From assembly GCA_022711335.1 (NCBI GenBank), contig JAKLFF010000001.1, forward strand, positions 323,016-387,015: 64,000 nt of DNA, in the 5' to 3' direction. Below, piece by piece: positions 2,594 to 16,395 of this stretch. The stretch is from Patescibacteria group bacterium (lineage in GTDB: Bacteria; Patescibacteriota; Minisyncoccia; Moranbacterales; UBA2206). The notes under the pieces are model-generated. The model was not told where the DNA came from and did not search any database. It was given only the letters and a program-made list of their open reading frames with translations. Both the position numbers and the translations under genes were made by a program. The stretch's first letter is position 1. Each line of letters begins with the position of its first letter.

Positions 2594-2770
2594 TATCACC
2601 TCCTTTTCTAATCTACTTATTTTAGCTGTTGTATACTTTGAATATATACCCATTATATATTACTGTCAATAATAAGAATATCTTTCAAGCGGAGAACGGA
2701 GCAAATAAAAAAACCGCCAATTTGTAGCGATTCTGTAGAAATTTAACCCCAATCTCTTTTTTTATATAAC

Positions 2771-7954: not shown

Positions 7955-8405
7955 ATTATCTTTGAGAAACTTCAAATTGATGTTCCCATCGCGCCTGCGG
8001 ATTTCCCGCACGCGACGAGCTCTAATGCATTTTAATTTCAAAGTCACATTTAAAAAATGAAATATAATTTCTTATGCAATTGAGTAAGTCCTTCACCTTT
8101 AATAAAGTTACTACGACTTAGCTGACTTCTTATAAAGTCATAAGTTTCTTGGCTTTATAAGATCTCCCGGGGTTATATATTATTCCATTCCTGACATTCC
8201 AACGCATCGAGTCTAGGCATCTTCCCTAACCTCACCACCCAATCATAGGTCGATGCGATGCTTTTTATTGTTGGACTGCCGTTTGTTTCCAGGTCCTTCA
8301 CCGCATTGCTCGCGCAATGCGACTACCTTTCAACTACGCTCTCGTGACGAACGAGAGGGAGAGATTTTAACTCTCTTAAACAATACACTGCCCGGCGCTT
8401 TTATT
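7955..8405 (-). other. ORF-less ~450-nt insertion (putative intron) in the 16S 1390s region
   Basis: GGTGTGACGGGCG and GTGAGTACAAGATCCGAGAACGTATTCACCG, contiguous in all 16S genes, are separated here by ~450 nt of GC-moderate structured sequence. Confidence 0.5.
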
Positions 8406-8635
8406 GTGAGTACAAGATCCGAGAACGTATTCACCGTGACATGGCTGATTCACGATTACTAGTGATTCCGGCTTCATGAGGTCGAGTTGCAGACCTCAAT
8501 CCGAACTGAGACCAAGTTTTTGGGATTAGCTCCGCCTTGCGGCTTGGCAACCCTTTGTCTTGGCCATTGTAGCACGTGTGTCGCCCAGGGCGTCAAAGGG
8601 CCACGCTGATCTGACGTCATCCCCGCCTTCCTCCC

Positions 8636-8830
8636 AGAACTTTGCACGCGAAACGTGCAAAGTAAATCCGAAGCACGAAATCCTAAATCCAAAACAAATT
8701 CAAATAATAAAATTTAAATTTTCAAAACGTATTTGTTTTGAATTTTAAAAATTAGAATTTTGAAAATTGTTTGGGATTTCGATATTCGAATTTCGAATTT
8801 ACTTTGCGCTCTCGCGCAAAGTTCTGGGCA
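8636..8830 (-). repeat. ~190-nt AT-rich hairpin insertion in 16S (copy 1 of a duplicated element) closed by a GC-rich stem
   Basis: The insert is flanked by complementary arms CAGAACTTTGCACGCGAAACGTGCAAAGTAAAT / ATTTACTTTGCGCTCTCGCGCAAAGTTCTGG. Its ~110-nt core is ~85% identical to 10330-10445. Confidence 0.5.
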
Positions 8831-9051
8831 GTCTCGCGTGACATAGTAACACGCGACAGGGGTTGCGCTCGTTTCCTGACTTAACAGAACACCTTACGGC
8901 ACGAGCTGACGACGACCGTGCAACGCCTGCTTAGCACCCTCGAAGGCTTATCTGTTTCCAGATAATGCAGCTAAGTTTCAAGCCCTGGTAAGGTTCCTCG
9001 CTTATTGACGAATTAAACCACATGCTCCACCACTTGTGCGGATCCCCGTCT

Positions 9052-9083
<32 letters not shown>

Positions 9084-9709
9084 TCCCAGGCGGCAGACTT
9101 AACGCGTTAGCTACGACACCGGAAGGGTCGATTCTCCCGATACCTAGTCTGCATCGTTTAGGGCGTGGACTACTGGGGTATCTAATCCCATTCGCTACCC
9201 ACGCTTTCGCATCTCAGCGTCAGAAAAGTGCCAATCAAATGCCTTCGCCTTTGGTGTTCCATATGATATCAACGCATTTCACTGCTACACCATATGTTCC
9301 ATTGATCTCTCACTTTCTCAAGATATGCCGTTTCAAATGCAGTTTTCGAGTTGAGCTCGAAGATTTGACATCTGACTAACATACCCGCCTACATGCGCTT
9401 TACGCCCAATAAATCCGGATAACGCTTGAGGTCTCTGTATTACCGCTACTGCTGGCACAGAGTTAGTAACCTCTTATTCAATCGGTACCGTCAAATTGTG
9501 CCTCACTATTGCTTTGTAATTTTCAATTTACAATTATCAATTTTCAATAAATTTACAATTTATTAATTTCCAATTTTCAAATCGTCATATTGATAATTGA
9601 AAATTGAATCTTGATAATTTTTTGTAAATTGTAAATTGGTAAATGTAAATTGTTTTTTTAGGAATTGAATGGAGATTGCGAGACCGCGAGGTTCCGCAAT
9701 CCCGCAGTT

Positions 9710-9928
9710 TTAATCGGCATAGTCATCGCCCAATAATGCTCTCTTGTGAGCTTCTCTGGCTTGAGCTAAGGTTTCGAATTTTTTTCCCGAATAACATTCT
9801 TTCCATTTTGATGAAAAAGGCTCCTCAAGGCTTTCAATCTTTTTTGTTTCCGCATTATAGCGAAATTTGACAAAGGAACTGCGACTAAGTTGCATTTCTC
9901 CCAGCCCGAAATATTTTTTCTCTGTCAT
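9710..9928 (-). CDS. 72-aa ORF inside the 16S insertion (hypothetical; could be non-coding)
   Basis: ORF only. No homing-endonuclease motif (LAGLIDADG, GIY-YIG, HNH) seen. Confidence 0.2.
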   Translation of the reverse strand: MTEKKYFGLGEMQLSRSSFVKFRYNAETKKIESLEEPFSSKWKECYSGKKFETLAQAREAHKRALLGDDYAD

Positions 9929-9990
9929 ACATCATCCTTTCTTTGCCATTAGAATTGTTGTAGACAACCTCAATTCAATCCCTAATTGAC

Positions 9991-10046
9991 TTGTCATCCT
10001 GAAATCGTTTCAGGATCTAGATGCTGAAATAAATTCAGCATGACAA
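9991..10046. repeat. Small inverted-repeat element copy A (TTGTCAT ... TCTAG ... ATGACAA, two internal hairpins)
   Basis: TTGTCATCCTGAAATCGTTTCAGGATCTAGATGCTGAAATAAATTCAGCATGACAA. The 7-bp terminal inverted repeats and the TCTAG core are shared with 35234-35313. Confidence 0.5.
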
Positions 10047-10320
10047 AGCCACCAAACAATAGTGAGACACAATTTCTTCCCGATTAAAAGCGGTTTACAA
10101 CCCAAGGGCCTTCATCCCGCACGCGGCGTCGCTCCATCAGGCTTTCGCCCATTGTGGAATATTCTCGACTGCAGCCACCCGTAGGTGTTTGGACAGTGTC
10201 TCAGTTCCAATGTTGGGGGTCACGCTCTCACGTCCCCTACCCGTCATAGCCTTGGTGAGCCTTTACCTCACCAACAAGCTGATAGGACACAGGCCGCTCT
10301 CTAAGCGCTGTATACAGCGC

Positions 10321-10452
10321 AAAAATTCGAAATTTGAATATCGAAATCCAAAACAAATTCAAATACTTAAATTCAAATGTCCAAAACATAGTTGTTTTGA
10401 ATTTTGAAAATTAGAATTTTGATATTGTTTAGAATTTCGAATTTCGCGCTTC
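10321..10452 (-). repeat. ~130-nt AT-rich hairpin insertion in the 16S 5' domain (copy 2 of the element at 8636-8830)
   Basis: The core CGAAATCCAAAACAAATTCAAATA...GTTGTTTTGAATTTTGAAAATTAGAATTTTGA...TTCGAATTTCG is shared with 8680-8800. Confidence 0.5.
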
Positions 10453-10603
10453 GGATTTCTGTGCTATATACGGCTTTACTTCGTAAAGCTTATCATGTAT
10501 TATTTCTCCTTTCGAAGAATTATTCATGACTTAGAGGTACGTTCCTATGCATTACTAACCCGTTTGCCATGGGCCTAAACCCATGCGACTTGCATGCCTT
10601 ATC

Positions 10604-10643
<40 letters not shown>

Positions 10644-11198
10644 AATGAAAATCGAAATTTCAAATCGCGAAGCGATGCAGAAATTTCGCTAGTTTCATTA
10701 GACTCCGTGATTCCGCGGAGCGGAATTTTACGGGGTCAAAAAACCAGATATTAAAAGAAAATAAATTCTTTGAGTTCCCGACGCAAAGGTCGGGATAAAT
10801 TGAATAGACTCTAATTGTCCGATCCCGCTTAGCGGGACCAGACGAGGACTAATCGCAAAAAATTGTGATTTACCCCGTGATCGCGTGCGCGATTTTACGG
10901 GGTTTCGTCCAAATCTTTCCAATGACTTAAAAAGATTTGAACTATTTAATTTTAAAAGTTCTTGCTTTTTGTGTCGAACCGTTTGACAAGCTCACAGCGA
11001 ACAAAAAACACATCCTTATGCGCAATTTTATTACACGCAAGGATGTATTTTATATCACCCGAATTTTAAAGTAATTTTGAGCCTTTAATTACTGCCGTTT
11101 TGGTCTTAAATAATTATATGCAACTCGTGATATCTATATTAGCAAATACACAAATGCTGTCAACCCCTAATTTTATCATCTTAAAAAATACGTTAAAT

Positions 11199-12761: not shown

Positions 12762-14033
12762 TTAATTTTTCTCTATTTTTTCCATCCCATCCGGTATAAA
12801 TGGTTTCAAGACTTCCGGAATCAATACACTGCCATCGGCTTGCTGGTAGTTTTCGATGATAGCAATTAAGGCGCGGGAGATAGCAACGGCTGTGCCGTTT
12901 AGCATATGCAGATATTCTTTTTTGCCGTCTTTTCGCTCAACTTTCACATTTAATCTCCTGGCTTGATAGGAAGTGGTGTCAGAAGTGGAAGTTACTTCTC
13001 CCCAGTCATTTCTTGACGTCATCCAGGCTTCCAAGTCATATTTCCTTTGCGCCGGTCCGCCAAGATCGCCAGTGCAAATGTCAACAACACGGAAAGGCAC
13101 GCCCAAGTCTTTGAAAATTTCCACTTCGAGATTTTTTATTTCCGTATGCATCTTTTCACTTTCTTCAGGCAAGGTATAAGCAAACATTTCCACTTTGGTG
13201 AATTGATGGACACGGTATAACCCGGCGCTGTGGCGACCATAAGATCCGGCTTCGGTCCGATAGCAATGGGAAAGTGCGACATATTTTAAAGGTAATTTAT
13301 CTTCCGGAATTACTTCGTCCATATGATATCCTCCCATGGTGATTTCAGCTGTTCCGACTAAATTTAGATCGGTATTTTCCACTGAATAAATCTGCGTTTC
13401 TGCTCCGCGTGGGTTGTATCCGATGCCAAGCAGAACCTTATCCTTGGCCAGATCCGGCGTAGAAAAAGGAACGAGTCCTTTTTTAACCAGTTTTTGAAAA
13501 GCAAAATTAATAAGCGCCTGTTCTAGAAAAACACCCTCATTTTTGAGAAAATAAAATTTTGATCCGGCCACTTTTGCACCTCTTTCGAAATCGATTATAT
13601 CTAAATTAACCATCAACTCTTCATGCCCTTTTGGCTCAAAATCAAATTTTGGCGGTTCGCCGTATCTTTCGATTTCCTTGTTCTCACTGTCGTCTTTTCC
13701 AACAGGAGAATCCGGATGAGTCATGTTAGGAACTTGGAGGAGCAATTCGCGATATTCTTTTTCAATATTTTCCAACTCCGGTTCAGCTGCCCCCAATTTT
13801 TCTTTCACTGCTTTTCCCTGCTCAATAAGCGATTTGCGTTCATCATCTTTCGCTGATTGAATAAGATCATTAAGTTTATTTTTTTCCGCTTTCAGTTCCT
13901 CAATGTATTGAAGTGATTTTTTACGCTTGCTATCTAGACTTAAAAGTTCGCCTACATCGCATTTTATATTTCTCAATTCGCAGTTTTTTTTGACCGCCTC
14001 CGCATTCTCACGGATATATTTTATGTCTAACAT
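12762..14033 (-). CDS. serS: Seryl-tRNA synthetase
   Basis: N-terminal coiled-coil arm, class II aaRS motifs and SerRS-typical length (423 aa). Confidence 0.9.
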   Translation of the reverse strand: MLDIKYIRENAEAVKKNCELRNIKCDVGELLSLDSKRKKSLQYIEELKAEKNKLNDLIQSAKDDERKSLIEQGKAVKEKLGAAEPELENIEKEYRELLLQVPNMTHPDSPVGKDDSENKEIERYGEPPKFDFEPKGHEELMVNLDIIDFERGAKVAGSKFYFLKNEGVFLEQALINFAFQKLVKKGLVPFSTPDLAKDKVLLGIGYNPRGAETQIYSVENTDLNLVGTAEITMGGYHMDEVIPEDKLPLKYVALSHCYRTEAGSYGRHSAGLYRVHQFTKVEMFAYTLPEESEKMHTEIKNLEVEIFKDLGVPFRVVDICTGDLGGPAQRKYDLEAWMTSRNDWGEVTSTSDTTSYQARRLNVKVERKDGKKEYLHMLNGTAVAISRALIAIIENYQQADGSVLIPEVLKPFIPDGMEKIEKN

Positions 14034-14230
14034 AAATTTAAATTGTTTAATGGTTAAATGATTAAAAACACAGTAAAATTAGCTTATTTCTGTAATCTAA
14101 ATATATCACGCCATACAAAATTTATCCAGTATTTCCATCATTTGTAATTCTTATATTCGTACTTAATTCGTAATTCGTAGAGAAAACAAAAAGGCCGCCG
14201 GAGAAAATTTCTCCAGCAGCCCGGTAAACA

Positions 14231-14470
14231 TTATCCAAACAAGACCTCCTTTTCGGCAGCTTCTATTTCCTTTCGCACTGCATTCGCAAGAAGCTTGCCT
14301 CTAGCCATTTCTATATCCTTAATGGCCATCGAAAGAGGCCTCCTTCTTTGGACAAGAAGGACTAGAATTGCCAGACAGCGCCTAATGTCTTGTTGAGTAA
14401 ATTCTTTAACACTGTCCTGGCAATCCCCGAGCTCTGAATATGAATATTTTCTTTCATTGTCCAGCGGCAT
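14231..14470 (-). CDS. Small protein (78 aa), third gene of the GC-rich small-gene cassette
   Basis: Start ATG at 14468-14470 is preceded by AGGAGGAAG-ACG. A downstream intrinsic terminator (GGAGAAAtTTTCTCC plus T-run, rc of 14190-14225) follows. The track's TTG-start version is 94 aa. Confidence 0.4.
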   Translation of the reverse strand: MPLDNERKYSYSELGDCQDSVKEFTQQDIRRCLAILVLLVQRRRPLSMAIKDIEMARGKLLANAVRKEIEAAEKEVLFG

Positions 14471-14633
14471 CGTCTTCCTCCTGTTTTGAAAACATGGCAT
14501 TTTTTTGATATTCAAGAATCCTTTTCCAGGTTCCCGGCTTTGAGTTTATGATTTGCAACAGTCCGCCCAGCGATAATGGCTTATGCTGCCGTTCCATCCA
14601 ACCCTTCTTCGCTTGTCTAATATTGTATGCCAT
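14454..14633 (-). CDS. Small protein (59 aa), middle gene of the cassette; below the ORF-track cutoff
   Basis: Its ATG overlaps the upstream stop as TAATG (rc 14631-14635). Protein: MAYNIRQAKKGWMERQHKPLSLGGLLQIINSKPGTWKRILEYQKNAMFSKQEEDDAAGQ. Confidence 0.35.
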   Translation of the reverse strand: MAYNIRQAKKGWMERQHKPLSLGGLLQIINSKPGTWKRILEYQKNAMFSKQEEDDAAGQ

Positions 14634-14851
14634 TATATCTCCCTCCCTAATAATCTTAATATAATTTCAGCTTCTCTTCTGGCAACTGCCCCGTATTTTC
14701 TGTAAATATGCGCCAGCGCTTCTTCAATTGGCCGGCCATCTTCTGCGCACTTCCGGAGATGCAGTTTGATTATTTCTGTCCTGAAAGCAGGACAATAAAA
14801 AAGATCGGCCAGAAAACTTTCTTCCATGCAGCCCAAAGTATGCAAAGACAT
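14633..14851 (-). CDS. Small protein (72 aa) with a C-terminal sigma-70 region-4-like HTH; first gene of the cassette
   Basis: Perfect SD AAAGGAGGG 5 nt upstream. Sigma-70-like promoter TTGACT-17-TATATA upstream (rc of ~14880-14915). C-terminal PIEEALAHIYRKYGAVARREAEIILRL resembles the region-4 HTH. Confidence 0.4.
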   Translation of the reverse strand: MSLHTLGCMEESFLADLFYCPAFRTEIIKLHLRKCAEDGRPIEEALAHIYRKYGAVARREAEIILRLLGREI

Positions 14852-14946
14852 AAAGACCCTCCTTTCTTCACTATTGAAAGAACATTATCCTTTTAAATTT
14901 AAACAAGTTATATTTCTATATATATTTTTTACTCTCAAAAGTCAAA

Positions 14947-16395
14947 TTATTTCTCCTTCACCGGCTGAAAAATGATTGTTTCCCGAATTGATTTATTCAT
15001 TATGAAGGCAAAAAATCGTTCGCTCATGCCAAAGCCGAAAGCCGGCGGCATGCCATATTCCAAAGCTTCTACAAAATCTTCATCCATCATCTGCGCTTCG
15101 GCGTCTCCGGCTTCACGGGCCTTCATCTGCTCCAAAAACCGGTTTTTTTGGTCGATCGGATCATTGAGCTCGGAAAAGGCATTGCAAAGTTCGGACCCTC
15201 CCGCCACAATCTGGAAGCGCAGAACTTTTTTGGGATTTTTGGGATCAATTTTTGAAAGAGGCGAAACTTCCAAGGGATGGCCGACAAGAAAACACGGCTG
15301 GATCAGTTTCTTGCGCACGGTTTTCTTATAGATCGTATCGATCATCCGCCCTTTGCCATAATTCGGCTCATATTTTATCCCTAATTCGTCCGCTTTTTTC
15401 TTTAGCGTTTCTAAGGTTATTTCTTTTTTTAAATCTATTCCGGTCTCTTTCTTGAATTCCTTGAAATAATCAACTGCCGGAAATTTCTTTTTCCAGTCTA
15501 TTTTTTCGCCATTATGTTCAGTTTCCAAACTGCCGGTTATTTCCAAAACAATTTTTTTAAACATCTTCTCGGAAAACTTCATCCCCTTTTTGAGATCCCA
15601 ATAAGCCGCATAAAATTCCATATGCTCAAACTCCTGAAGATGTTCGCGATCTATTCCTTCGTTTCGAAAAACCCGCCCGATTTCAAAAACCTTTTCATAA
15701 CCGCCGACCAAAAGCCTTTTCAACGGAAGCTCCAAAGAAATGCGCAGAAAAAAATCCTGGTTGAGAGCATTGTGATGCGTCAAAAATGGTTCGGCTTCGG
15801 CGCCTCCCGGAATATGCTCAAGCACCGGAGTCTGCACTTCCAAAAAATCATCTTTTACCAAAAAATGCCTTACAGTATGCCAAAAAAGTCTCTTTTTCCG
15901 GAAAAGTTCCCGTGTTTCCGGATTCATCATTAAATCCAAATATCTTCGACGCAATAATTCTTCCGTATCTTTCAAACCAAAATATTCAGTCGGAATCGGC
16001 CGCATGTTTTTGGACAGCATTTTCCAGCTTTTCACATTTAAAGTCTTTTCTTCCGTTCTGGTCTTAAAAAGATTTCCCGCTACTTCAATAAAGTCGCCTA
16101 TTTCCACCGAACTCGCGAACAAATAAAATTCTTTCCCGTCCAAATTCTGTTTGTTCAAAAATATTTGGATTTTACCGCTGCCGTCTTCAATGTGGGCAAA
16201 GATAGCGTTCCCCATCGGCCGAAAAGATTTAACTCTCCCGACCAGATGAATTTCACTCGCAGTGAGCTTGTCGAACTGTTCTAGGGCCTTCGAATTTGTC
16301 ATGGAACGCTCCGTTTTTTCCGGATAAGCTTCCATTTCGGATTTTTTTATATTTTCCAGCTTGTCCAGCTTGGTTTTTTGTATATCCTCGCGCAT
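14947..16395 (-). CDS. lysS: Lysyl-tRNA synthetase, class II
   Basis: N-terminal OB anticodon-binding domain, class II motifs (FRNEG..., GGxExxxAxxEL-like C-terminus), 482 aa. Confidence 0.9.
   Translation of the reverse strand: MREDIQKTKLDKLENIKKSEMEAYPEKTERSMTNSKALEQFDKLTASEIHLVGRVKSFRPMGNAIFAHIEDGSGKIQIFLNKQNLDGKEFYLFASSVEIGDFIEVAGNLFKTRTEEKTLNVKSWKMLSKNMRPIPTEYFGLKDTEELLRRRYLDLMMNPETRELFRKKRLFWHTVRHFLVKDDFLEVQTPVLEHIPGGAEAEPFLTHHNALNQDFFLRISLELPLKRLLVGGYEKVFEIGRVFRNEGIDREHLQEFEHMEFYAAYWDLKKGMKFSEKMFKKIVLEITGSLETEHNGEKIDWKKKFPAVDYFKEFKKETGIDLKKEITLETLKKKADELGIKYEPNYGKGRMIDTIYKKTVRKKLIQPCFLVGHPLEVSPLSKIDPKNPKKVLRFQIVAGGSELCNAFSELNDPIDQKNRFLEQMKAREAGDAEAQMMDEDFVEALEYGMPPAFGFGMSERFFAFIMNKSIRETIIFQPVKEK

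What the first reader, a model, noticed from the sequence alone, without database searches (positions are those of the whole stretch)
14185..14920. Compositionally distinct, tightly coupled cassette of three small genes (72, 59, 78 aa) between serS and lysS
About 45% GC against ~35% for the neighbours. A near-consensus sigma-70-like promoter (TTGACT-17-TATATA) and perfect SDs (AAAGGAGGG; AGGAGGAAG) are present. The first and second genes overlap as TAATG. The second and third overlap by ~16 nt in different frames. A clean intrinsic terminator follows the third (GGAGAAAtTTTCTCC plus T-run). Gene 1 ends in a sigma-70 region-4-like HTH. Gene 2 (59 aa, MAYNIRQAKKGW…) falls below the 60-aa cutoff of the ORF track and is reported only here. 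None of the three matches a family I recognise. The arrangement suggests a horizontally acquired regulatory or toxin-antitoxin-like module with an HTH autoregulator first.
Basis: partly seen in the sequence, partly recalled or inferred. Interest (0 to 1): 0.55.

Follow-up and report, generated by a model that had tools for sequence, protein, structure and literature searches.

The report
Strain-variable small-gene islet in Moranbacteria
Three tiny, tightly coupled genes between the lysyl- and seryl-tRNA synthetase genes of a Candidatus Moranbacteria genome are real and conserved. They belong to protein families found almost only in this lineage, in a small islet whose gene content is swapped between related strains, and their function is still unknown.

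Summary
The trio is real. On the minus strand lie g1 (14633-14851, 72 aa), g2 (14454-14633, 59 aa) and g3 (14231-14470, 79 aa). They have strong Shine-Dalgarno (SD) sites, 1-nt and 17-nt overlaps, a rare near-consensus promoter motif and a clean terminator. All three are under purifying selection (dN/dS 0.12-0.5).

Three claims fail.
- The cassette is not compositionally distinct: 43% GC against 41-43.5% for neighbouring genes.
- g1 is not a demonstrable sigma-70 region-4 HTH. It has no Pfam or fold match and is absent from close relatives.
- g2 is already annotated in public records.

New findings:
- Homologues occur almost only in related candidate-phyla-radiation (CPR) contigs, nearly always just downstream of lysS.
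- The constant core is g2 coupled to one or two helical proteins of the g1 and g3 families.
- The islet is a recombination hot spot. Against one relative, identity is 98% up to the lysS stop, non-homologous or 78% inside the islet, and 88% in serS.
- The lysS-g1 spacer, including the promoter motif, is a relic of a deleted DUF3850 gene.

No toxin, antitoxin, defence or phage domain was found. My best inference, at low confidence, is a small hetero-oligomeric nucleic-acid-binding regulatory or conflict-type module. Interest is moderate to low.

The parts
14940..14945 (-). -35-like hexamer TTGACT, 1 nt after the lysS stop codon
   Evidence: Sequence. The motif is rare in the window and conserved in L019. 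It corresponds to codons L-T of a DUF3850 gene in L001, L003 and L014.
14917..14922 (-). -10-like hexamer TATATA, 17-nt spacer
   Evidence: It reads TATAGA in L019, L001 and L003, where it encodes D-I-E of DUF3850.
14889..14946 (-). Relic of the 3' end (about the last 20 codons) of a deleted DUF3850/ASCH-like gene. It forms most of the lysS-g1 spacer.
   Evidence: DNA alignment with the intact DUF3850 genes of L001, L003 and L014. The frame is broken by stops in the window and in L019. DUF3850 identity of the intact gene: E=1.7e-19.
14857..14865 (-). Shine-Dalgarno AAAGGAGGG of g1, 5 nt before the ATG
   Evidence: Sequence. Conserved in L019, L001 and L003.
14633..14851 (-). g1: a 72-aa, four-helix protein. 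It is an accessory member of the islet and is absent in L014 and L018.
   Evidence: ORF. Orthologues at 76% identity. dN/dS 0.15-0.23 with an excess of third-position changes. AF2 pLDDT 82. Distant homologues are L022 126 aa (E=8e-16) and L025 90 aa.
14454..14633 (-). g2: a 59-aa protein and the invariant core of the islet. It has a basic body (pI 10.5) and an acidic tail. Conserved motifs are Y-x-x-R/K-x-A-K/R near the N-terminus and [ST]PG[AF]W[KR][KR] further on.
   Evidence: ORF. Family search (14 hits in 1.84 billion proteins). dN/dS 0.25-0.31. Charge.
14231..14470 (-). g3: a 79-aa protein with a conserved N-terminus MPLDNER, an acidic disordered stretch and then a basic three-helix domain. 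It is highly allelic between strains.
   Evidence: ORF. Homologues. dN/dS 0.12 against L014. AF2 pLDDT 73 with helices 26-41, 46-57 and 59-78. The ATG start, not the upstream TTG, is supported by the SD and by the homologues.
14192..14222 (-). Intrinsic terminator: a 14-bp stem followed by TTTTTGTTTT
   Evidence: Equivalent hairpins of different sequence occur in L019, L001 and L014.

Best explanation
SHOWN. The trio is a genuine small operon. It belongs to a strain-variable gene islet specific to Candidatus Moranbacteria and near relatives. In nearly every contig long enough to show the flanks, the islet sits just downstream of lysS, and where serS is present it lies between lysS and serS.

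The invariant component is g2, a 59-aa basic protein with an acidic tail. g2 is always translationally coupled to, or overlaps, one or two small helical proteins of the g1 and g3 families. These two families share an '(R)P-x11-[YF]G' helix-kink-helix core and may be distant paralogues.

Other genes come and go between close relatives: g1 itself, a DUF3850/ASCH protein and a Cys-rich protein. In the window lineage a deletion removed DUF3850. Its 3' relic remains as the lysS-g1 spacer, and that relic carries the rare near-consensus promoter motif.

Whole islet alleles are exchanged between related strains by homologous recombination anchored in the conserved flanking tRNA-synthetase genes.

INFERRED, low confidence. 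The coupled products assemble into a small hetero-oligomer. The basic domains of g2 and g3 bind nucleic acid, and the acidic tail and N-terminus mediate partner binding. The complex would act as a regulatory or conflict-type module (addiction or immunity-like), which would explain the rapid allelic turnover.
For: CODING AND MAINTAINED
- dN/dS is 0.15-0.23 for g1, 0.25-0.31 for g2 and 0.12-0.54 for g3, against about 0.05 for lysS and serS.
- Third-codon-position changes are in excess.
- The locus is 100% identical in 10 independent assemblies.

OPERON SIGNALS.

NARROW DISTRIBUTION AND FIXED POSITION
- g1 has 3 clusters in 5.8 billion proteins.
- g2 has 14 hits in 1.84 billion representatives.
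- Contexts are given.

g2 PAIRED WITH A g1-LIKE OR g3-LIKE GENE
- L022: g2, then a 126-aa g1 homologue (E=8e-16), then an 89-aa gene, with its own promoter and terminator.
- L021: g2, then a 128-aa g3 homologue (E=4e-6).
- L025: a g1-like gene, then g2.
- L026: g2, then a g3-like gene.

OTHER EVIDENCE
- g1/g3 paralogy: hhalign E=0.002-0.006 in the same register each time, and BLASTP g1 against L019 g3 E=0.005.
- Variable content among close relatives.
- Recombination break at the lysS stop.
- DUF3850 relic.
- Charge layout.
- All-helical models.
Against: - No experimental or homology-based functional anchor exists. There is no significant hit in Pfam, NCBIfam, PHROGs, PADLOC, PDB sequence profiles, or Foldseek against PDB and BFVD.
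- Complex formation was not tested, because no multimer prediction was available.
- g1/g3 paralogy has only 6-12% hhalign probability.
- Strict synteny over deep divergence, including a lineage with class I LysRS, argues for a vertically inherited host function rather than a selfish module.
- The promoter motif may be incidental, since it is ordinary coding sequence in relatives with an intact DUF3850. No terminator separates lysS from g1, so read-through is possible.
- The islet sample is small, about ten distinct islet variants.
Confidence: 0.5

Rival explanations
1. A bona fide (tripartite) type II toxin-antitoxin system. One product is a growth-arresting toxin, one a neutralising antitoxin, and g1 a transcriptional autoregulator.
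For: - The genes are small, overlap and have their own promoter and terminator.
- Evolution is fast, with allele replacement and presence/absence variation among close strains.
- One relative carries an apparently inactivated g2, with TGA at the conserved Trp codon.
- In one relative the g2-g3 pair sits next to an IS481-like transposase.
Against: - There is no toxin or antitoxin domain and no PADLOC hit.
- No fold match to any TA component was found.
- g1 is dispensable and its position varies.
- The module is syntenic across deep divergence rather than patchily scattered.
- All three products are short helical proteins with no evident catalytic motif.
Confidence: 0.2
2. A vertically inherited, lineage-specific host-function operon. 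It might be linked to nucleotide or RNA metabolism, with g1 and g3 as degenerate MazG/HisE-like all-alpha domains working alongside the neighbouring ASCH/DUF3850, Ham1, Maf and HD proteins.
For: - Position downstream of lysS is conserved over deep divergence.
- The g3 profile hits HisE (PDB 1yvw) at E=0.005 over 55 residues.
- Foldseek lists a MazG-related protein among the weak hits.
- Relatives carry DUF3850/ASCH, Ham1, Maf or HD genes adjacent to the module.
Against: - The HisE hit weakens to E=0.26 with a broader profile.
- hhalign probability is only 4-9%.
- Other HisE and MazG structures are not hit, and no PRA-PH or MazG Pfam hit appears.
- The acidic catalytic residues of the E-x-x-D helix align to Q and R in window g3 (alignments).
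- Window g3 lacks the N-terminal helices.
- A housekeeping role fits poorly with the loss of g1 and the wholesale allele replacement between 98%-identical strains.
Confidence: 0.15
3. A decayed remnant of a prophage or other integrated mobile element, that is, a cluster of small 'moron' or early genes.
For: - The islet holds many small ORFan genes of variable content.
- DUF3850 is common in mobile elements (family knowledge).
- An IS transposase lies next to the pair in L026.
Against: - There is no integrase, no flanking direct repeats and no tRNA.
- No relatives were found in IMG/VR viral contigs, GenBank phages or plasmids.
- There are no PHROG hits.
- Composition is native.
Confidence: 0.1
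4. Spurious ORFs or a non-coding element (structured RNA) rather than protein genes.
For: - The ORFs are very short and have no family hits.
- g1 synonymous divergence is lower than that of its flanks, which could hint at a nucleotide-level constraint.
Against: - dN/dS is well below 1 and third-position changes are in excess.
- SD sites and starts are conserved.
- Protein-level homologues persist at saturated dS.
- No Rfam match was found.
- Antisense frames are not consistently open.
Confidence: 0.03

Closest known systems
Type II (including tripartite) toxin-antitoxin operons
   Same: Small, co-oriented, overlapping genes with their own promoter and terminator. Fast evolution and strain-level presence/absence.
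   Different: No recognised toxin or antitoxin fold or family. Fixed chromosomal position across deep relatives. g1 is optional and its order varies.
Replacement-type flexible genomic islets (alternative gene sets at one locus between conserved flanks)
   Same: A sharp drop from 98% identity to non-homology exactly at the end of a conserved flanking gene. Alternative gene contents occur at the same site in close relatives.
   Different: Very small (0.6-2 kb) and made only of genes of at most about 130 codons. A core pair (g2 plus a helical partner) is retained in all variants.
DUF4248 (PF14053, uncharacterised family; Bacteroidota distribution recalled from memory)
   Same: g1 aligns over almost the whole model (residues 8-69 to positions 4-66 of 68) and is of similar size.
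   Different: The score is 13.5 bits against a 27-bit cutoff (E=0.078). g1 orthologues give no hit. The function of DUF4248 is itself unknown.
HisE/MazG all-alpha NTP pyrophosphatases (C-terminal helix pair)
   Same: The g3 pattern 'LVLLVQRRRPLSMAIKDIEMARGKL' resembles '[25 protein letters not shown]' of HisE 1yvw. Nucleotide house-cleaning enzymes lie nearby in relatives.
   Different: Statistically weak. Catalytic acidic residues are not conserved. Window g3 has only three helices.
Sigma-70 region 4 / LuxR-type HTH
   Same: g1 ends in two helices joined at a glycine.
   Different: No profile hit and no structural match. The first of these two helices spans 12 residues (42-53). From my own knowledge of HTH motifs, this is longer than the classic first helix, and the hydrophobic positions do not fit.

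Membership tests
Type II toxin-antitoxin module | Adjacent, co-oriented, translationally coupled small genes forming one transcription unit | tested here: met
   1-nt and 17-nt overlaps, SD sites, promoter motif and terminator.
Type II toxin-antitoxin module | One product belongs to a recognised toxin superfamily (RelE/ParE, MazF/CcdB, PIN, HipA, Doc, GNAT, Zeta and others) | tested here: not met
   No Pfam, NCBIfam or PADLOC hit. g1 and g3 have no significant fold match. g2 was tested by sequence only.
Type II toxin-antitoxin module | Antitoxin with a recognised DNA-binding fold (RHH, Xre-HTH, AbrB, Phd/YefM) | tested here: inconclusive
   No profile hit for g1, g2 or g3. g2 is basic (pI 10.5 without its tail).
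Type II toxin-antitoxin module | Toxicity of one component, neutralised by the cognate partner | not testable with these tools
   Needs expression assays.
Type II toxin-antitoxin module | Patchy, mobile distribution at unrelated loci and in unrelated taxa | tested here: not met
   The flanks could be read for most contigs, and there all homologues lie downstream of lysS in one lineage. In L021, L023 and L026 they could not be read. One short contig (L026) has an adjacent IS transposase.
Sigma-70 region 4 / LuxR HTH (g1) | Match to Sigma70_r4, Sigma70_r4_2 or GerE profiles | tested here: not met
   No such hit at E<=10 for g1 or its orthologues.
Sigma-70 region 4 / LuxR HTH (g1) | Structural superposition on an HTH DNA-binding domain | tested here: not met
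   The best HTH hit is the LiaR DNA-binding domain at E=5.1, TM 0.30. All hits have E>1.
DUF4248 (PF14053) | Score at or above the Pfam gathering threshold (27 bits) | tested here: not met
   13.5 bits, E=0.078. Orthologues P0002 and P0003 give no hit.
MazG/HisE all-alpha NTP pyrophosphatase | Significant sequence or profile similarity to family members | tested here: inconclusive
   The g3 profile against 1yvw gives E=0.005, falling to 0.26 with a broader profile. hhalign probability is 4-9%. There is no Pfam PRA-PH or MazG hit.
MazG/HisE all-alpha NTP pyrophosphatase | Conserved acidic metal-binding motifs (EExxE and ExxD) on a four-helix bundle | tested here: not met
   In the register, the E and D of HisE 'E-M-V-D' fall on Q27 and R30 of window g3. 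The model has three helices and a disordered N-terminus.
Prophage / integrative element remnant | Integrase or recombinase, att-like direct repeats, tRNA target, or homologues in phage or plasmid collections | tested here: not met
   None found. No PHROG hits.
Replacement-type flexible genomic islet | Conserved flanks with an abrupt loss of homology, and alternative gene contents at the same site in close relatives | tested here: met
   Window against L014 gives 98.1% over 5.4 kb up to 14924. The islet is then unalignable or 78%, and serS is 88%. Alternative contents are shown.

The most novel reading that the evidence does not exclude
g2 together with the g1/g3 helical family forms a previously undescribed conflict system (toxin-antitoxin, abortive-infection or immunity type) or regulatory system restricted to candidate-phyla-radiation bacteria. 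Its alleles are swapped by homologous recombination at a fixed hot spot between two aminoacyl-tRNA synthetase genes.
Probability: 0.3. Interest if true: 0.55.

Novelty: new variant of a known kind. Interest (0 to 1): 0.33.

Why it matters
CPR/Patescibacteria genomes are tiny and full of unannotated small genes. Few of those genes have been organised into recurring modules.

Here three orphan families (g1, g2, g3) can be defined as a recurrent, coupled unit at a fixed chromosomal site. Allelic replacement occurs between strains that are 98% identical in the flank. If the module proves to be a conflict or regulatory system, it would add a lineage-specific system to a group where known defence and TA families are scarce.

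If it is merely a set of fast-evolving accessory proteins, the value is limited to better annotation. It also gives a clean example of a micro-islet maintained by recombination between housekeeping genes.

Tried and rejected
- Compositional foreignness: rejected. GC, GC3 and the window percentile are ordinary.
- Known families for all three proteins and for the islet neighbours (Pfam, PHROGs, PADLOC, NCBIfam): nothing except chance-level hits. These were DUF4248 E=0.078, PirA, KH_PARP14, MRP-L46 and IL32.
- PDB profile searches for g1, g2, g3 and the combined profiles: only the weak HisE lead.
- Phage or plasmid origin: no relatives.
- Structured RNA or T-box in the spacers: nothing in Rfam.
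- Flanking att-like repeats: only short AT-rich chance matches.
- Antisense ORF over g1: the frames are not consistently open, and the substitution pattern fits the sense frame.
- GTDB species genomes: the only 'hit' was an SDR dehydrogenase and is spurious.
- Paralogues elsewhere in the window: none.
- One broad g2 alignment was too divergent for a pattern scan.
Full report
**WHAT IS THERE**

The finding's interval lies on the minus strand between lysS (14947-16395) and serS (12762-14033). Both flanking genes are also on the minus strand. The three ORFs are g1 (14633-14851, 72 aa), g2 (14454-14633, 59 aa) and g3 (14231-14470, 79 aa from the ATG).

- g1 and g2 share one base (TAATG). g2 and g3 overlap by 17 nt in different frames.
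- Each start is preceded by a strong SD site: AAAGGAGGG, GGGAGGGAG and AGGAGGAAG.
- A 14-bp hairpin with a T-run follows g3 at 14222-14192.
- TTGACT-17-TATATA lies at 14945-14917, one base after the lysS stop.
- The general motif TTGAC-N16-18-TATAWW occurs at only two loci in the 64-kb window. That is 4 overlapping matches against 0.54 expected, and 0 of 100 shuffles reach 4.

The anatomical part of the observation therefore holds.

**WHAT DOES NOT HOLD**

*Composition.* The three coding sequences together are 43.2% GC. lysS is 41.8%, serS 41.0%, the PBP2 gene 43.5% and the window mean 39.2% (sd 4.2). This places the cassette at the 82nd percentile, and GC3 is also ordinary.

*The g1 HTH.* g1 has no sigma-70 region-4 or LuxR profile hit even at E<=10. 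Its AlphaFold model (pLDDT 82; helices 3-18, 21-38, 42-53 and 55-67) has no Foldseek match better than E=1.5 in PDB or BFVD.

*Novelty of g2.* g2 is not newly discovered. It is hypothetical protein P5262_03755 of an NCBI Candidatus Moranbacteria MAG, and it is called in all public assemblies of this locus.

**ARE THEY GENES?**

Yes.
- Orthologues in related contigs give dN/dS of 0.15-0.23 for g1, 0.25-0.31 for g2 and 0.12-0.54 for g3. The flanking synthetase genes give about 0.05.
- Substitutions in g1 concentrate at third codon positions, and the antisense frames are not consistently open.
- The 811-nt locus is 100% identical in ten independent assemblies from ENA, JGI and Logan samples.
- No Rfam family matches the region.

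These were fragments of one frameshifted gene, or Ka/Ks near 1.

**DISTRIBUTION AND CONTEXT**

The window comes from a Candidatus Moranbacteria (CPR) genome. In passing, its 16S rRNA gene spans 2296 nt for a 1533-nt model.

The families are extremely narrow.
- g1 has 3 clusters in 5.8 billion proteins.
- g3 has 6 clusters.
- g2 has 14 hits in an exhaustive HMMER scan of 1.84 billion representatives.

In nearly every contig long enough to show the flanks, the module lies directly downstream of lysS. Usually this is in the order mreCD-pbp2-greA-lysS-[islet]-serS. The islet content varies:

| Locus | Gene order |
|---|---|
| Window, L019 | lysS-g1-g2-g3-serS |
| L001 | lysS-Cys-rich-DUF3850-g1-g2-g3-serS |
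| L003 | as L001, plus extra small genes; g2 carries TGA at the conserved Trp codon |
| L014, L018 | lysS-DUF3850-long g2-g3-serS, with no g1 |
| Two contigs from JGI sample 3300075153 | DUF3850-g2 followed by several small genes before serS; one also has Trp-repressor-like and Ham1 genes |
| L025 | lysS-Cys-rich-g1-like-g2-serS |
| L022 (more distant; class I LysRS) | greA-lysS-HD-PAP2-[g2, 126 aa, 89 aa], with its own promoter and terminator |
| L021 | Maf-g2-128 aa |
| L026 | IS481-like transposase next to g2 and a 100-aa gene |

**THE CORE OF THE MODULE**

The 126-aa protein of L022 is a clear g1 homologue (BLASTP E=8e-16, 45% identity). It lies after g2, not before it. The 128-aa protein of L021 is a homologue of the L019-type g3 (E=4e-6). 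By eye, the L026 100-aa protein belongs with it.

The constant feature is therefore g2 coupled to at least one small helical protein of the g1 or g3 type.

g1 and g3 share a hydrophobic helix followed by (R)P-x11-[YF]G and another helix. Profile-profile comparisons align them in this same register three times, but only weakly. hhalign gives E=0.002-0.006 at 6-12% probability, and BLASTP of g1 against L019 g3 gives E=0.005. I regard paralogy as likely but unproven.

g3 is strikingly allelic. Three C-terminal types share less than 35% identity. They occur among genomes whose lysS and serS differ at only about 7-10% of non-synonymous sites. The N-terminal MP-x-D motif persists even where g2 and g3 do not overlap.

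**THE ISLET IS EXCHANGED BETWEEN STRAINS**

- Window against L014 is 98.1% identical over 5.4 kb up to position 14924, just past the lysS stop. The islet is then unalignable, except for 172 nt of g3 at 78%. serS onward is 88%.
- g1 synonymous divergence between the window and L019 (dS 0.78) is less than half that of the flanking lysS and serS (about 1.7).
- The 'deleted' islet form (lysS stop fused to a DUF3850 relic, then g1-g2-g3) is shared by the window and L019. Their lysS genes each group more closely with a genome that carries an intact DUF3850. The window pairs with L014 (dS 0.18) and L019 with L001 (dS 0.27).

This is the signature of a replacement-type flexible islet recombining through its conserved flanks. 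'Horizontally acquired' is thus right only in the sense of within-lineage allele exchange. There are no homologues in viral contigs, GenBank phages or plasmids. There is no integrase, tRNA or att-like repeat.

**THE PROMOTER SITS IN A GENE RELIC**

Aligning the lysS-g1 spacer with relatives shows that window positions about 14946-14889 are the decayed last 20 or so codons of a DUF3850/ASCH gene. In L001 these codons read N-N-L-T-F-W-K-K-K-D-I-E-K-Y-G-F-Q-V-L-G-F-stop. TTGACT corresponds to codons L-T, and the -10 hexamer corresponds to D-I-E.

The frame is broken in the window and in L019. The motif is rare enough to be a plausible promoter, and it may also act as an internal promoter in relatives. 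However, no terminator separates lysS from g1, so read-through cannot be excluded.

**FUNCTION**

Nothing anchors it.
- Pfam, NCBIfam, PHROGs and PADLOC give no hits beyond chance level.
- The g1 hit to DUF4248 covers the full model length but scores 13.5 bits against a 27-bit cutoff. It is not reproduced by orthologues. DUF4248 is itself uncharacterised.
- The g3 profile hits HisE (1yvw) at E=0.005 over 55 residues, with a suggestive pattern. Relatives carry Ham1, Maf, HD and ASCH genes nearby.
- That HisE hit falls to E=0.26 with a broader profile. hhalign probability against a small HisE alignment is 4-9%. The catalytic acidic positions are not conserved, and window g3 has only three helices after a disordered N-terminus. 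I keep this only as a lead.

Physical features fit a small hetero-oligomer with nucleic-acid-binding potential.
- g2 has a basic body (pI 10.5) and an acidic tail.
- g3 has an acidic disordered N-terminus and a basic helical domain (pI 10.4).
- g1 is near neutral.
- All genes are translationally coupled.

Together with the rapid allelic turnover, I favour a regulatory or conflict-type module at low confidence. This could be addiction or immunity-like. Against a classical TA system stand the absence of any toxin or antitoxin domain and the deep synteny.

**VERDICT**

This is a real, well-delimited operon of three orphan small proteins. It is not compositionally foreign, and there is no demonstrable HTH in g1. 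It belongs to a lineage-restricted, recombining micro-islet whose core is g2 plus a g1-like or g3-like partner.

The protein families are new to the libraries searched. The kind of locus, a strain-variable islet of coupled small genes, is familiar. Interest is moderate to low unless the function proves to be a new conflict or regulatory system.

Noticed in passing
window 8354-10649 (-): The SSU rRNA gene spans 2296 nt for a 1533-nt Rfam model. This implies about 760 nt of insertion(s), as is often seen in CPR 16S genes. No ORF of 120 aa or more lies inside.
   Followed up: no
window 1-64000: ARAGORN finds no tRNA gene in the entire 64-kb window.
   Followed up: no
L022 2988-4571: A more distant relative keeps the mreD-pbp2-greA-lysS synteny, but its LysRS is class I (PF01921). 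The window, L001, L019 and L014 have class II (PF00152), and the L025 lysS aligns with the window's class II gene. This is an apparent LysRS class switch at a syntenic position.
   Followed up: no
L003 1431-1622: g2 of this relative has an in-frame TGA exactly where all other family members have the conserved Trp (TGG) of the PG-x-W motif. It may be a pseudogene, an assembly error or recoding. It comes from a single low-coverage Logan contig.
   Followed up: partly
L001 5478-5711; L003 603-923; L025 1709-2005: A small Cys-rich protein with the motif C-x-W-G-K-C-K-D-C-G recurs in the islets of several relatives. It has no family hit.
   Followed up: partly
L026 9-1121 and 1146-1638: In one short contig the g2 and g3-like pair lies directly beside an IS481-like DDE transposase (rve/rve_3, HTH_28). 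This is the only context hinting at mobility.
   Followed up: partly
L014 3923-5407: The lysS of this relative is 98% identical in the flank. It carries a 12-aa insertion relative to the window's lysS, within a short divergent stretch around residues 290-310 (VMEVSGGLVTEHSSVNSAKAEHGAGGEKIDW against VLEITGSLETEHNGEKIDW).
   Followed up: no
window 2641-2669 (-): This is the only other near-consensus TTGAC-N16-18-TATAWW motif in the window (TTGACA-17-TATATA / TATATT). What it drives was not examined.
   Followed up: no
L020 5719-6450: The single GTDB-genome 'hit' for g2 is the motif ITPGTWKRIF inside a Clostridiales short-chain dehydrogenase. It is a chance match.
   Followed up: yes
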